Below, piece by piece: positions 40,901-55,900 of a DNA stretch of 64,000 nucleotides (position 1 is its first letter; each line of letters starts with the position of its first letter). The translations under genes and the position numbers were made by a program. Source of the DNA: Tubiluchus corallicola (taxonomy: Eukaryota > Animalia > Priapulida). A model generated the notes under the pieces. It did no database searches and was not told where the DNA came from. It saw only the letters and a list, made by a program, of their open reading frames with translations. Where the stretch lies: NCBI GenBank assembly GCA_030141605.1, contig JAQGDQ010000913.1, positions 16,966-80,965 on the forward strand, written 5' to 3'.

Positions 40901-43900
40901 ATTAACGTATGCCTGATGCCTGAGTTAAACAAAATGATAATGTTTAATATTGATTATAATTACTGCATATTTTCTTTTTACACATAGAAATACCCCAATT
41001 TCACTTACTTATGATGTTTGATCCTTTCAATAATATTTCTTTACAGTGTGCAATTATCAAGATTTACTATTATCACTTTTGTCTCTTTACATAACATTTT
41101 AGGTAATTTTAACCTTTACCCACGTTTTTTGGTTGATTACCATTGTATTCGTAAGCCCATATACGATAAAGGAAGCGGTTAGTTCACTTAGGCATAATTT
41201 TTGTGCGCATGTTAATACTTGTTTATGGAATACATTACGAGGTCCAGTTTATTCATGTATTGAGTATACATTTGACCATTGTGTTGTGAAAGAAAGCAGT
41301 AGTGTTCATTATTTACCTGAGCAAATAGTTCCAGTAGCATTTGAAACACTCAAATCAATTGTTCCGTCAATACACAGGCATGTAAAACTTCCATCAGTAT
41401 TTGAGCAGTTAGCAAGGACAGGATCACAGTCGTGGGTAGGACTGGCGGCATCACATTCATTTATATCTGAATTGAACAAAACCGCAATGTTCAACAGTCA
41501 TGTGTACAATTAGCAGCATAACATTAACGTTAAACAAAATGGTAATGTTAATATTTATTATAGTTACTGCATATTTTCTTTTTACACATAGAATTACACT
41601 AAATTCACATACTTATGAATTCACATACTTATGAAGTTTGGTCTGGTAATCAATGTCTCTGTACAGTATGCATTTAGCAAGATTTATAATAAGCACTTTT
41701 GTGTCTTTACATAACTTTTCAGTAACTCTAACCTTTACTGTGTTTTTTATTCATTATCATTGTATTCACATGCTCACAGACGACAAGAGAAGCGTTACTT
41801 CACTTAGGCACTGAGGGTCACAGTCATGTGTTGGATTAGCAGCATCGCATTCATTTATATCTAAGTTAAACAAAATAAAATTCAACATTTATTATATGTT
41901 ATCGTAACAAAGTATCTACAGTTATTTACAGAATTTGTTGCCCTTATGTAAATCAAAATCTGGCAGAGTTTATTATAAATGCTTAAATCTTTATAAACTT
42001 GCGAATCCTGATTATGTTATCAACCAAAATTTCAATGAGAAATGTTTGGGGGGCTTTAGCTAGTGGTATAAATGTTATATAATGTGAATGAGCTGTTATA
42101 AAATACATTACTGAGATTGAACATGCTTAGAAGGGCAATGGTATCCTTGTCTTATCTTTGCAAATTGAAATTACTCTTTGCAAACTGTTTTATGAAATTG
42201 TTTAGCTGTAGTTCTTACCTCAGCAAAGTGTTCCTGTAGCATTTTGTCCACTCACATCAATTGTCCCATCAATACATTGACATTAAAATACATTATGTTG
42301 TGACTGAGCACTTTTAAAGAGCTTGTTAAGTTTACCTTTGATCATCTGTAATGTTATAATTAACCTGCAGAGTAACGGTTGAACAATTGCAACGCGAGCC
42401 TACTTTTGTCTACATGTCCACATATTTTAATAATAAACTCCTTAAAAACTTCTCTTATACATACGTTTCATCATCCAATCTTGCAGGTTCCAGAATTGTA
42501 TACAGGTTTTAGCTGATTCTGTCATGTTAATGCAATCACATTTTACCTGAACAACTGGTTCCCTGACCATTTGCTCCACTCACATCATTGGTTCCTTCAA
42601 TACACTGACACGTGAAACTTCCATCAGTATTTGAGCAGTTTGCAAGGATTGGATCACAGTTGTCGGTTCCAGTAGCACATTCATCTATATCTGGACCTAT
42701 TAGAATAATGATTATGCATGTACATCTAACTATTCACTTGTCGACTGGCGATACAGGATCACAGGCATTCATAACATGACTGCTCATTCTTGTTGTGTTG
42801 TTATTATTATTGTTATTGTTATTATTATTATTATTATTATTATTATTATTATTATTATTATTATTATTATTATTATTATTATTACTATTATTATTATAAC
42901 ACAAATTTGGCTTGCGCTACAGCGACTAGAAAAAATCGGGGTTCTCTAATAGCATTATTATAGGCATTCTTTAAATATTTTCTTTATAGTGATTAAAACA
43001 GTGAGTTTTAAAAAATTATGAACAAAACTAAAGAAAATAAAAGGGCCACAATATGTATTAAACTAATCGTATCGAAAACTAGAGATTCATTCAGAAATAC
43101 AATCAGTTCTTATGCACTCATCGAATTTGAGCTGGAAAACTGCATAGCATATGAGAGACCAACGTGGTTCGGATAAAAAAATTACAATAAAATCTTTCAA
43201 TACATCAGCTTCCTCGCCAGGTGCAGATTTTACACAATTGAAAAGTTTTTTATGGGGTTTACCTCATCAAATGTAAATTTTACAGAACTAAAAAGTTTTT
43301 CCTAGTGTTCCCCTCATCACATGTAGATTTTAAAAAATTCATGTTCTTAAATGTTCTAATTCATTTATAATGTCTTCAGGGACGTAAGTGAGTAAGTGAT
43401 TGAAAAACTAGATTCGAATGCTACTGTATTGCAAGCTCAAACTCCTATTATAACTTGAAAGCGTTTGAAATCTATGCATTATACATACCAATGTATTTAC
43501 TGATTTCACATATAGCATATCCTCTACCATCGCATTCAAAGGCTTCGTGTACATTGGCACCAGCAACAACACAAAAGTCTCTCTGAATAAAAACAAGGTT
43601 TGTAACTTGATCAAGTGCTGGTTACTAATAAGGTTGAAACTGCAATAAAAGTAGGTGCACAATTTAGGATTACATCTATGTATGTGAAAAACGTTTGTGA
43701 AGTTAAGTAGTACCGAGTATGGGTAGTGAATGGGTGAGTGATCACTGGGAACTGTTTCTAGCCACGTTTGCCTGTCAGGGCTGCAGATTGACACACTGCA
43801 AGCTAATACGTGGCTGCAGGTCTAAGTTTGTTAGTTAGGCAGGTCCTAAATAAAAAATTGTCAAGCTTAAGACAACAAAGTGGAGGAGTAACATTGTCAC

Positions 43901-52900: not shown

Positions 52901-55900
52901 TTGGTAAACATACTAATGCTTACCCAAAGTGTTGAGCAAAGTACTCCGAAATTTCTTGAGTTTTAATAGGCGCCAAGGACGCTCCTTGTTGCTTGCACTC
53001 GTAATAAGCTTTCAAGTGGTTTAAGGGCATGGAATCACTCAACTTATAGCAGTAGCTGATTGTTCCGTTGCCGCCAACAAACCCTTCAAATCCTTCAGGA
53101 CATAAACCTAAGCAAACATGTGAAACAAAATATCAGTTTCCATTATAATAGGACGTAGCCATATCAGACTTTTGTGCTTAATCATTAGACTCCAAATTCG
53201 CTTCTCGTCATCAACATAGTCAACTTGATTTGCGACTGCATACAGTGGTGGCTCCTTTATAGGTACTGTGGAAGTACAGAACCCCTGCTTTCACTCATTA
53301 TTATCGATAATTGCAATAAATTATTTTTCTCTTTAGTTTCTTTTATTTATGTGTGTTTTATAAATTTGTTACGAGCAGCCACTGGCTGCAGATCTTTTCT
53401 CCAAGGAACCACAAGGACATGACCCACACGGATATCATCTGTTAAACTAAGCGATGAATCATTTCGTGAGTTATGTTTAAGAAAGCAATTCCTGCTCAGG
53501 AAGTCAACGTTCTTGTAGCAATGTTTGCATGCAGCTCTTGCAACTTAATATTAAGCCAGAAAAACGCAATGTTTTGAACAAAATGCTCAGGTTCTAGGCA
53601 TTTGTACTTGAAATGATAAAATTCAGTCATTATACTGGAAATTAAAGGTGCTCAAACGTCTGAACAGTTGACACTTTTGCAAAATGAAGGAAACCTAGTG
53701 ATTGAAAAACTAGATTCTTATGCTACTGTATTGCAAGCTCAAACTCCTATTATTACTTCAAAGCGCTTGAAATCTGTGCATTATACATACGAAAGTGATC
53801 CTCAATTTCACATATACCAGGTCGTATGTCATTGCATTTTGAGACTTCGTGTACATTGGCATCAGCATATCCAACACAAAAGTCTCTCTGAATAAAAACA
53901 AGGTTTGTAACTTGATCAAGTGCTGGTTACTAATAAGGTTGAAACTGCAATAAAAGTAGGTGCACAATTTAGGATTACATCTATGTATGTGAAAAACGTT
54001 TGTGAAGTTAAGTAGTACCGAGTATGGGTAGTGAATGGGTGAGTGATCACTGGGAACTGTTTCTAGCCACTTTTGCCTGTCAGGGCTGCAGATTGACACA
54101 CTGCAAGCCAATACGTGGCTGCAGGCCTAAGTTTGTTAGTAAGGCAGTCCTAAATAAAAAATTGTCAAGCTTAAGACAACAAAGTGGAGGAGTAACATTG
54201 TCACTTTCACTACCAATCCAATCTTTCTAAACAAGGTAAACAATCCAGGAAGACAATACGGAAGACGAAAATGGTCAGAAATGGTAGCGAATCACGCACA
54301 TTGACCACTTGTCTATAACGAAAATAGCTTTCGCATTTGTTTATTAAAACATTGGTAATTCTTTCTCGGGATCAGATGAGTAGAGATTTGCAACAAATAA
54401 TGGCAAGTATAAATTGACTGAAATGAAAATTATATAAAATGAATGCCTAATTACTTTTAAACAGTTTGTATCTATGACACCAGTAATTACTAAACTTTTT
54501 ATAAAAAAAGCTAACATAGTTTCAGGCAAAATAGCTGTCTACAACAGTGTAAAACCATGCTCAAAATTAGATTTGACTGACCTTAGATACAGTTTGAATT
54601 AGCTCAGTTTTCCAAAAGGAATATCCGAGCCATTCAACCGTGTAGGTTCTTGAAGTAATCCAACTGTCAATAAGTGCAACTGTACGTCCATCGGGTGTTT
54701 CATAGTTTCCATTTCCAATATTTGATCTTGGTGAAAGCCAGACATTTCCGTGGTTCCTTTAATCGATGTACACATTACATAAATAAAACTTGTTTAAAAT
54801 ACGTGAAACTTACTGAAAACTGTGTGAAAGTGACACTTCTTGCTATGTGCTGCATTTTTCATAAGGATGTGCTGCCTAAGCTATTTCAAACTTCTGCAGC
54901 TTATCCTATGCTCATGTAAAAACGTCATGAAATTAGCTACCTGATTTTTGGTTATAATTATTATATTATTATACTTTAGACTGAAGTTGAAAGTGCGCTG
55001 CTGCTTTTCTTCTGTCCATGAACGACGCCATTGCTTGAAGAATGGCCAATCAAAATGGGAGCGGCAAAGTAATTTAACTAATTACACGAACTACTTAGCA
55101 CAAATTTATTACTAAATATCTTTAACGTTTGCTCGAACATAAACCTATGTTTCTCGAGATAAACGATTTTTTTCAGAAGGTTTGCCTTAATGTTCATAGC
55201 AATTTGCAAACTTGGCTTAGAATTCATAGATTATGCAAAATAAAAACTTACGACCCCATGTACCTATTTTTATCATTGAAATCACTGAGATCTGCAGAAT
55301 AATCATAGAAATCACTGAGATCAAAAGGCAGAAAGGCACCACAAAGCTCATTGAAACTGTTTACCTTCATTGTTTCAATACTCATAACAAATACACTGAA
55401 AACTACCTAAACATTGATGCTAGTTTGCTATCTAAAAAATCTATACGATTCTTACATTATTCATAGGTGCAAAATTCACAGTTTATACAAAATAGAAACT
55501 TACGACCCCATGTAGCTATTTGTATTATAGTCATAGAAATCGCTGAGATCGAACATGTTCAAAAGAGCAATAGTATCCTGAGGAGACGTCACTTCCAAAA
55601 GTCTCCGTGGAGAAGAGCATGCAGTCTGTGCTTCTAAGTAAGTTATTGCTGACCCCTCCTTGTCTAGACATTTAGACCGCCCATTATACGTAGAAGAACC
55701 ACAGTCATGCTGAACTGAAAATTCAAATAAACCAATCTAAGTCGTTCAAAATTCACACGCTTTTTGATCTACCAGTGGTAACTGGTTGCTGGTGTAGAGA
55801 TGTAGTCGTTTTGCATGCATGTATTATGTAACTTGATGCTTATATACAAATGTTATTTATATACAAAAATTTGCTTATATAAAAATGTTGAAACGTATTA

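What the first reader, a model, noticed from the sequence alone, without database searches (positions are those of the whole stretch)
43400..54760. Paralogous CTLD exons are far more divergent than the intron between them
Seen, by hand alignment of C (43489-44451) and C' (53791-54756): the ~690-bp intron between exons 2 and 3 is nearly identical. Exon 3 differs at 24 of 94 nt plus one in-frame codon indel, with about 15 amino-acid changes and only one purely synonymous codon (RDFCV-VAGANVHEAFECDGRGYAICEISKYI vs RDFCVGYADANVHEVSKCNDIRPGICEIEDHF); all three Cys are kept. The ~93 nt of intron just downstream differ at only about 6 sites. Exon 2 is identical for its first ~80 nt, then has 9 amino-acid and 4 silent changes. 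Established: this part of a CTLD includes the long-loop and beta3-beta4 ligand-binding surface. Inference: positive selection, or gene conversion that homogenises introns while selection preserves different binding sites.
Basis: partly seen in the sequence, partly recalled or inferred. Interest (0 to 1): 0.85.

Follow-up and report, generated by a model that had tools for sequence, protein, structure and literature searches.

The report
Hypervariable lectin exon amid homogenised introns
In an animal gene predicted to encode repeated C-type-lectin-like domains followed by 26 EGF repeats, one short exon differs at about a quarter of its bases between two tandem copies and occurs in four versions in public sequencing data while the intron beside it is 98% identical, likely because gene conversion keeps the introns alike while selection favours variety in a predicted binding surface, a pattern already known from colour-vision, MHC and plant resistance genes.

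Summary
Exon 3 of C and C' differs at 23-24 of 94 bases plus one codon; the intron between exons 2 and 3 differs at 12 of 692 (Fisher p 1e-14). C and C' are the third lectin-like domains of two tandem A-B-C modules upstream of 26 EGF exons. The duplication is old (A exons dS about 1, most introns unalignable), so the near-identical stretches are best read as gene-conversion tracts. Positive selection is not shown for the pair: omega is 2.7 for exon 3 (p 0.17 against 1), 0.64 for exon 2 and 1.3 for both. Silent sites in the diverged patch are also about ten times above the intron. New here: contigs of one sample carry four exon-3 versions (C, C' and two more, one also in a second study). The likely alleles differ by 12-14%, about as much as the paralogues do inside the domain, with 21.5 replacement to 2.5 silent changes (omega 2.5-3.3, p 0.02-0.17). 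This points to MHC- or RPP8-like diversifying selection in both copies rather than two fixed specialised sites. Verdict: a new member of a known kind. Taxon, expression and ligand are unknown.

The parts
43489..43582 (-). C exon 3 (predicted beta3 to beta5 and linker); hypervariable
   Evidence: found unchanged in sample S1 contigs (X1 record 6, 0 differences over 137 nt)
43583..44276 (-). C intron 2-3, homogenised with C' (12 of 692 differ)
44277..44451 (-). C exon 2; 5' 82 nt identical to C', 3' half diverged
43395..43488 (-). intron after C exon 3, 6 of 94 differences; end of the C/C' homology block
45620..45830 (-). C exon 1 (7 of 211 differ from C', omega 0.22); only part of C with an outside Lectin_C lead
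46721..46840 (-). B exon 3 (3 of 120 differ from B')
47718..47848 (-). B exon 2 (no counterpart in the upstream module)
50495..50729 (-). B exon 1
50722..51768 (-). second conversion tract: A exon 3, following intron and first bases of B exon 1, 98.7% identical to 60587-61633
52374..52504 (-). A exon 2; old divergence from A' (dS about 1, omega about 0.2)
52924..53107 (-). A exon 1
53791..53887 (-). C' exon 3; hypervariable
   Evidence: its differences from C are matched by X1 record 2 / X2 record 10 (read by hand)
53888..54581 (-). C' intron 2-3
54582..54756 (-). C' exon 2
55504..55714 (-). C' exon 1
57988..58107 (-). B' exon 3, the only whole B' exon left
58340..60586 (.). stretch where B' exon 1 (after its first 8 nt) and B' exon 2 are missing; contains repeat-like DNA
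   Evidence: high repeat depth of the related copy at 56490-57150
61446..61601 (-). A' exon 3, identical to A exon 3
62277..62434 (-). A' exon 2; Pfam Lectin_C E 0.006 (below cut-off), mannose receptor CTLD E 0.0035
62572..62654 (-). 3' remnant of A' exon 1; 5' half has no match to A exon 1
26314..42690 (-). 26 calcium-binding EGF exons (25 of 150 nt, 1 of 144 nt), in frame downstream of C

Best explanation
C and C' are tandem copies of a predicted C-type-lectin-like domain from an old internal duplication, whose introns are likely kept alike by recurrent gene conversion while diversifying (balancing) selection likely maintains many versions of the exon that would form the beta3-beta5 surface. 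Shown: the old duplication; the patchwork of near-identical and diverged stretches; four exon-3 versions in one sample; replacement-rich differences with Cys and frame kept. Inferred: that the extra versions are alleles of the two copies; that conversion acts within a chromosome; that tracts entering exon 3 are selected against or that old versions are kept because rarity pays; that the protein is an extracellular recognition molecule held on a long EGF stalk, with a non-sugar or non-canonical ligand (pathogen, or self/non-self or gamete partner).
For: Age: A1 (3' part) + A2 vs primed omega 0.21, LRT p<0.001 against 1; NG86 dS 0.9-1.2 for A2; introns outside the tracts do not align. Tracts: 1,047 nt at 98.7%, 392 nt at 96%, 1,097 nt at 93%, with sharp edges. 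Control in the same gene: EGF exons pN/pS 0.37 over 300 pairs; in the 42 pairs with alignable flanks exons differ less than flanks (2.4% vs 4.8%; exon higher in 9 of 42). Population level: four exon-3 versions whose contig depths sum to the total in X1 and X2. One extra version is also in X4, a second study. Five clean two-against-two sites all group C with one extra version and C' with the other. Likely allele pairs differ at 13 of 94 and 12 of 97 bases, against 20 of 468 and 5 of 341 in mostly intronic contigs (p 1e-3 and 2e-5; pooled p 4e-7). Over codons 1-26, 21.5 replacement and 2.5 silent changes (hand count), omega 2.5-3.3, against 19:17 for A2 (p 0.006). One codon has four different residues in four versions and five codons have three. 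A 468-nt mostly intronic contig with the summed depth of the two extra versions differs from C' at 20 sites where C and C' differ at 6. That fits paralogues on one haplotype being closer than alleles.
Against: Omega above 1 is not significant for the pair (p 0.17) and only borderline for four versions (p 0.02-0.17 depending on kappa and rounding). Exon 2 has omega 0.64. The sliding test for peaks on exons gives p about 0.05. The changes are not clustered on fewer codons than chance (p 0.19), and sparing of the three Cys is weak on its own (p 0.08). Contig depth is not copy number, so the extra versions may be further paralogues; S1 may be the source sample. The upstream module looks damaged in this haplotype, so C' could be under relaxed constraint. 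CTLD identity of exons 2 and 3 has no direct database support: 0 Pfam families, no real PDB or Atlas match. The joined C aligns with A or B no better than shuffles, and with the A' part only at z 2.7.
Confidence: 0.6

Rival explanations
1. Opsin-type specialisation: C and C' each hold a fixed, different binding site, and selection only removes conversions that would erase the difference.
For: The peak-of-divergence pattern is exactly that of L/M opsins (PMC3924837 passages; PMC3213168 abstract). Exon 2's 3' half may be fixed between copies: X4 has a contig with 17 differences from C' over 54526-54741, the same number as C.
Against: Inside the domain, likely alleles differ by about 8 and 12 bases and paralogues by about 11-14 (hand count). 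The clean locus-diagnostic exon-3 sites are 3 in the linker and 2 in the domain.
Confidence: 0.15
2. Neutral mosaic: conversion tracts of different ages happen to have missed these coding patches, with relaxed constraint (omega near 1), perhaps because the upstream module is decaying.
For: Omega 1.0-1.3 over the diverged patch. Silent sites and the first 73 intron columns share the raised divergence. Sliding test p 0.05. A' exon 1 and B' exons 1-2 are truncated or missing.
Against: The outer edges of the block are the more similar parts (82 identical nt; 6 of 94), so it is not an edge effect. All four versions keep frame, both splice sites where seen, and the three Cys. Excess divergence recurs between likely alleles of each copy. 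EGF exons in the same gene show the opposite pattern.
Confidence: 0.15
3. Assembly artefact: the introns were collapsed or polished together, or C and C' are two haplotypes of one locus placed in tandem.
For: C and C' exon 3 have equal, lowest contig depth in S1 (171.5 and 180.3; 5.8 and 7.3), as alleles would. No listed contig spans the C'-to-A junction, and one X1 contig leaves the window sequence at 53697 (table cut). Copy-specific intron variants were not visible in the truncated tables.
Against: The introns differ at 12 sites and 4 indels. The modules differ in A exons at dS about 1 and in unalignable introns. Each copy has its own linker and downstream intron, and each has a second version of its own type. 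The excess exon divergence would remain even if these were alleles.
Confidence: 0.06
4. Accelerated point substitution after a recent duplication, with no conversion (as described for venom and congerin genes).
For: Exon 3 differences are mostly replacements.
Against: The duplication is not recent (A exons), and silent sites in the patch are ten times above the intron, which point-wise selection on residues does not give.
Confidence: 0.04

Closest known systems
Intronic gene conversion with exon divergence kept: catarrhine L/M opsins (PMC3213168, abstract read; PMC3924837, passages read)
   Same: Tandem old duplicates, introns homogenised, a peak of divergence on functional exons.
   Different: Opsin exon differences are fixed between genes; here the exon also varies strongly within each copy, and the copies are probably domains of one gene.
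Conversion plus diversifying selection in MHC, self-incompatibility and R genes (PMC3924837, passages read); Arabidopsis RPP8 tandem NLRs (PMC6771003, abstract read)
   Same: Many divergent versions of a recognition exon across duplicated loci; damaged copies may serve as donors.
   Different: Different fold and lineage; no phenotype, no population sample; shuffling of motifs between versions is not seen in these four (all informative sites are compatible with one tree).
Positively selected CTLDs: mammalian CLRs such as Langerin (PMC10329266, passages read); sea urchin suREJ carbohydrate-recognition domains (Mah et al. 2005, title seen only in the reference list of PMC5521101)
   Same: Rapid replacement change in the ligand-facing part of a CTLD.
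   Different: Those are between-species tests on single genes. No REJ module was found here, and C lacks the calcium-site motifs.
Multi-CTLD receptors of the macrophage mannose receptor type
   Same: Several CTLDs in tandem; A' exon 2 matches MRC1 CTLD weakly (E 0.0035).
   Different: No ricin or fibronectin-II exon and no transmembrane exon was found in the window; 26 EGF exons follow instead.
Invertebrate allorecognition loci (Hydractinia alr, bioRxiv 10.1101/2022.03.25.485889, abstract read; Botryllus fester family, search listing only)
   Same: Highly polymorphic, duplicated extracellular proteins.
   Different: Alr proteins are Ig-like; nothing here links this gene to allorecognition.

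Membership tests
C-type lectin-like domain (PF00059) | Profile match | tested here: inconclusive
   C and C' exons singly: 0 Pfam families; A' exons E 0.006 and 0.02, below cut-off. ESM Atlas: C exon 1 top hits 0.93 and 0.92, clusters with Lectin_C on 11% of members; exon 3 no hit above 0.80. The spliced domain was not scanned.
C-type lectin-like domain (PF00059) | Conserved disulfide pattern and WIGL-like strand | tested here: met
   Cys at 4, 15, 32, 132, 145, 153, with C-x12/13-C-x7-C-E at the end; a VWLS strand aligned to the FWIG/YWLG/AWVG strands of A, A', B. Expected spacing is recalled; fold description from PMC7618208 passages. The domain is about 25-30 residues longer than usual.
C-type lectin-like domain (PF00059) | CTLD fold | not testable with these tools
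   Only single exons could be folded; exon 2 alone gave pLDDT 56, pTM 0.28.
Calcium-dependent sugar-binding C-type lectin | EPN or QPD plus WND motif | tested here: not met
   None in C, C' or B; only EPA in A.
Mannose receptor family (MRC1-like) | Ricin and fibronectin-II domains, 8-10 CTLDs, transmembrane segment | tested here: inconclusive
   Not seen in the window, but the gene's start may lie beyond base 64000 and its end is undefined. The architecture is recalled.
Gene conversion with selection (opsin type) | Old duplicates with introns more alike than exons | tested here: met
Gene conversion with selection (opsin type) | Intron trees group by species or haplotype, exon trees by locus | tested here: inconclusive
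   One contig suggests it (20 vs 6 of 468, p 0.008); no phased haplotypes or related species.
Gene conversion with selection (opsin type) | Exon differences fixed between copies | tested here: not met
   Four versions of exon 3, with likely alleles 12-14% apart; depends on the allele assignment.
Diversifying or balancing selection (MHC/RPP8 type) | dN/dS significantly above 1 in the binding region | tested here: inconclusive
   Pair p 0.17; four versions p 0.02-0.17.
Diversifying or balancing selection (MHC/RPP8 type) | Excess allelic diversity at the exon over linked neutral DNA | tested here: met
   25 of 191 vs 25 of 809, p 4e-7; two samples only, alleles inferred.

The most novel reading that the evidence does not exclude
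This is a highly polymorphic recognition receptor of an unstudied invertebrate: non-canonical lectin heads on a 26-EGF stalk, in which internal domain copies, one of them partly decayed, act as mutual conversion donors while balancing selection keeps many binding-loop alleles. It would be a candidate self/non-self or gamete-compatibility locus built on a C-type lectin fold.
Probability: 0.2. Interest if true: 0.75.

Novelty: new member of a known kind. Interest (0 to 1): 0.45.

Why it matters
The process is textbook, so the surprise is modest. Its value is as a pointer. It marks about 14 codons in one exon as the likely specificity surface of an otherwise unannotated protein with no relative in the databases searched, and it shows that the variation exists between individuals. 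That gives a cheap, specific marker (a 94-nt exon) for testing association with infection, fusion or fertilisation outcomes in this animal.

Tried and rejected
No whole genome is held for this window, so other copies could not be counted. Homologue searches found nothing real. C exon 2 'longer': 6 candidates, none scored. A' exon 2 'longer': 2 candidates, none scored. Neighbouring ankyrin protein, tried for a taxon clue: none. C exon 1 against 1.84 billion representatives: 5 of 5 hits are repeat-summed artefacts. Metagenome scan: 3 loci from 532 pattern matches, short weak matches taken as chance and not examined further. PDB: C exon 1 none; C' exons 3 and 2 only chance hits. Folding exon 2 alone was uninformative, so no fold search was run. 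Shuffle test of C against A and B: not significant. Edge effect of the homology block was rejected, because both outer edges are more similar than the peaks. A recent duplication was rejected on the A exons. GENECONV and codeml were not available; a pairwise GY94 fit and permutation tests were written instead. The transmembrane or last exon of the gene was not found in 14600-26400. Paper searches listed no paper on this pattern in an invertebrate multi-CTLD gene (judged from listings; one search returned 0). The library lacks most subscription papers and no supplements were read. PMC12674619 and PMC3269628 passages added nothing on introns versus exons.
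Full report
What is there. The window is AT-rich animal DNA (34% GC). On the minus strand lie two tandem modules of lectin-like domains, A'-B'-C' (about 62650-53790) and A-B-C (53107-43489), each domain split into three exons, followed by 26 calcium-binding EGF exons (42690-26314; Pfam EGF_CA E 6e-11 and 2e-7 for the two tested; list). 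All 15 listed lectin exons have AG/GT ends, and joining them from A' exon 2 through the EGF array gives 2,082 codons without a stop. C and C' may therefore be domains of one protein; no RNA is available to show it. The upstream module looks damaged in this haplotype: A' exon 1 lacks its 5' half, B' exon 1 breaks off after 8 nt and B' exon 2 is absent. The taxon could not be fixed; other notes on this genome call it an unidentified invertebrate (unchecked).

The observation. Exon 3: 23-24 of 94 plus a codon, 15 amino-acid changes, 1 silent codon. Exon 2: identical for 82 nt, then 9 amino-acid and 4 silent codons. Intron: 12 of 692 with 4 indels. Downstream intron: 6 of 94. The contrast is far beyond chance (Fisher p 1e-14; 0 of 20,000 permutations). 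That the peaks coincide with exons, given their clustering, is borderline (53 of 1,056 shifts). Half the intron's differing columns lie in its first 73, continuing the diverged end of exon 2, and 9 exon-3 differences lie in the linker after the last Cys.

Age and conversion. A exon 2 and the 3' part of A exon 1 differ from their primed copies at dS about 1 with omega 0.16-0.21, and most introns cannot be aligned. Yet A exon 3 is identical (0 of 157) with its following intron at 14 of 850, C exon 1 differs at 7 of 211 and B exon 3 at 3 of 120. An old duplication overlaid by sharp-edged near-identical tracts is what non-allelic gene conversion leaves (inference; compare PMC3924837 passages, and PMC3213168 abstract). 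In the EGF array, exons are under purifying selection (pN/pS 0.37, 300 pairs) and differ less than their flanks (42 pairs with alignable flanks of 300), so exon-over-intron divergence is special to C exons 2-3.

Selection in the pair. NG86 gives omega 1.6-2.4 for exon 3, 0.63 for exon 2 and 1.05 for both. A GY94 fit gives 2.7 (LRT p 0.17), 0.64, 1.31 and 0.92 for the whole domain. Exon 3 is still more replacement-rich than A exon 2 (19:4 vs 19:17, p 0.03). Silent sites in the patch are raised too (8 of 42 vs 12 of 692, p 4e-6): the patch is older than the intron, not merely faster.

Read evidence. Four of six listed runs hold the region, from two samples in two studies; all are contigs, and S1 may be the source sample. 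Laid on exon 3, X1 and X2 each show four contigs across the exon whose depths sum to the total, which lets the differences be phased by hand. One is C unchanged and one matches C'. A third has a C'-type linker and differs from C' at 12 of 97 bases (10 replacement, 2 silent; also in X3). A fourth has a C-type linker and differs from C at 13 of 94 plus the codon (also in X4, the second study). Five clean two-against-two sites all pair C with the fourth and C' with the third, so I read them as alleles of the two copies; further paralogues are not excluded, since depth is not copy number. Mostly intronic contigs differ from the window at 20 of 468 and 5 of 341 (these are 2 of the 32 pieces shown out of a cut table), so exon 3 is also in excess between likely alleles (pooled p 4e-7). 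Inside the domain the within-copy distances (about 12 and 8) match the between-copy ones (about 11-14). A parsimony count over codons 1-26 gives 21.5 replacement and 2.5 silent changes, omega 2.5-3.3, p 0.02-0.17 (intron kappa about 4); with the linker included omega is 1.5-2.0 and p 0.06-0.33. The RDFCV, NVHE and ICE motifs and the middle Cys are constant; 13 positions vary, one with four residues in four versions. The 468-nt contig has about the summed depth of the two extra versions and differs from C' at 20 sites where C differs at 6. This hints that copies on one haplotype share intron variants, as conversion within a chromosome predicts; it depends on assembler behaviour and is weak.

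What the exon would encode. CTLD identity rests on the Cys pattern, alignment of motifs with A, A' and B, an Atlas lead for exon 1 and weak Pfam and PDB matches of the A' exons. Direct support for exons 2-3 is lacking. By Cys spacing (recalled), the variable positions fall in the beta3-beta4 hairpin, the end of beta4 and the beta4-beta5 loop, and exon 2's diverged half in the long loop, which PMC7618208 (passages) describes as the variable specificity region. C and C' lack EPN, QPD and WND, so canonical calcium-dependent sugar binding is unlikely; a protein or non-canonical glycan ligand is the better guess (inference).

Mechanism and rivals. Best (0.6): conversion homogenises introns and conserved exons while diversifying selection keeps many old versions of exon 3 in both copies. 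Rivals: fixed opsin-type specialisation (0.15); neutral mosaic with relaxed constraint (0.15); assembly artefact (0.06); accelerated substitution without conversion (0.04).

Novelty. The process is known from opsins, MHC and R genes, and positive selection in CTLDs is known. My searches listed no report of it in an invertebrate multi-CTLD/EGF gene, within a library that lacks most subscription papers; supplements were not read. The protein has no relative in the databases searched. Verdict: real, a new member of a known kind, interest 0.45; higher if it proves to be a self/non-self or gamete recognition locus.

Noticed in passing
window 52374-52504 (A exon 2): All 6 exonic differences shown for sample S1 in the cut table fall on first or second codon positions and change the residue (for positions); the long-loop exon of domain A may be hypervariable too. 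Only 40 of 1,081 rows were shown.
   Followed up: partly
window 50518-50737 (B exon 1): X3 and X4 each hold a contig with an 85%-identical copy of B exon 1 (34 differences in 220) in unrelated flanks: an intact B'-like exon exists elsewhere or on other haplotypes, though it is lost from this window's upstream module.
   Followed up: no
window 26314-42690: Array of 26 EGF exons with higher-order repeats of three or four exon types and 90-96% identical introns: concerted evolution, probably length-variable.
   Followed up: partly
window 32851-33000: One EGF exon has lost its first Cys and gained a Cys three residues later.
   Followed up: no
window 26580-26670: Decayed partial EGF exon just before the last intact one.
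   Followed up: no
window 55205-55326: Local partial duplicates of the 3' end of C' exon 1, with its donor site, inside the following intron.
   Followed up: no
window 53373-53441: Short open stretch between AG and GT on the minus strand between C' exon 3 and A exon 1 (coordinates approximate). It could be a phase 1-1 linker exon or, in another frame, a hydrophobic leader; this bears on whether the modules are one gene or two.
   Followed up: no
window 57454-58020 and 46617-46753: A 43-nt minisatellite derived from the end of B exon 3 and its donor site, much expanded behind B' exon 3.
   Followed up: no
window 11964-14570 (+): Single 868-codon frame with N-terminal ankyrin-like repeats and a SOCS-box-like end (labels from recall); residues 300-864 found no relative.
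   Followed up: partly
window 3895-9833 (+): Exons of a trypsin-like serine protease (TAAHC and GDSGGP motifs).
   Followed up: no
window 21273-24715 (-): Decayed LTR-retrotransposon-like element: integrase-like fragments (label from recall) between 85%-identical direct repeats of about 600 nt.
   Followed up: no
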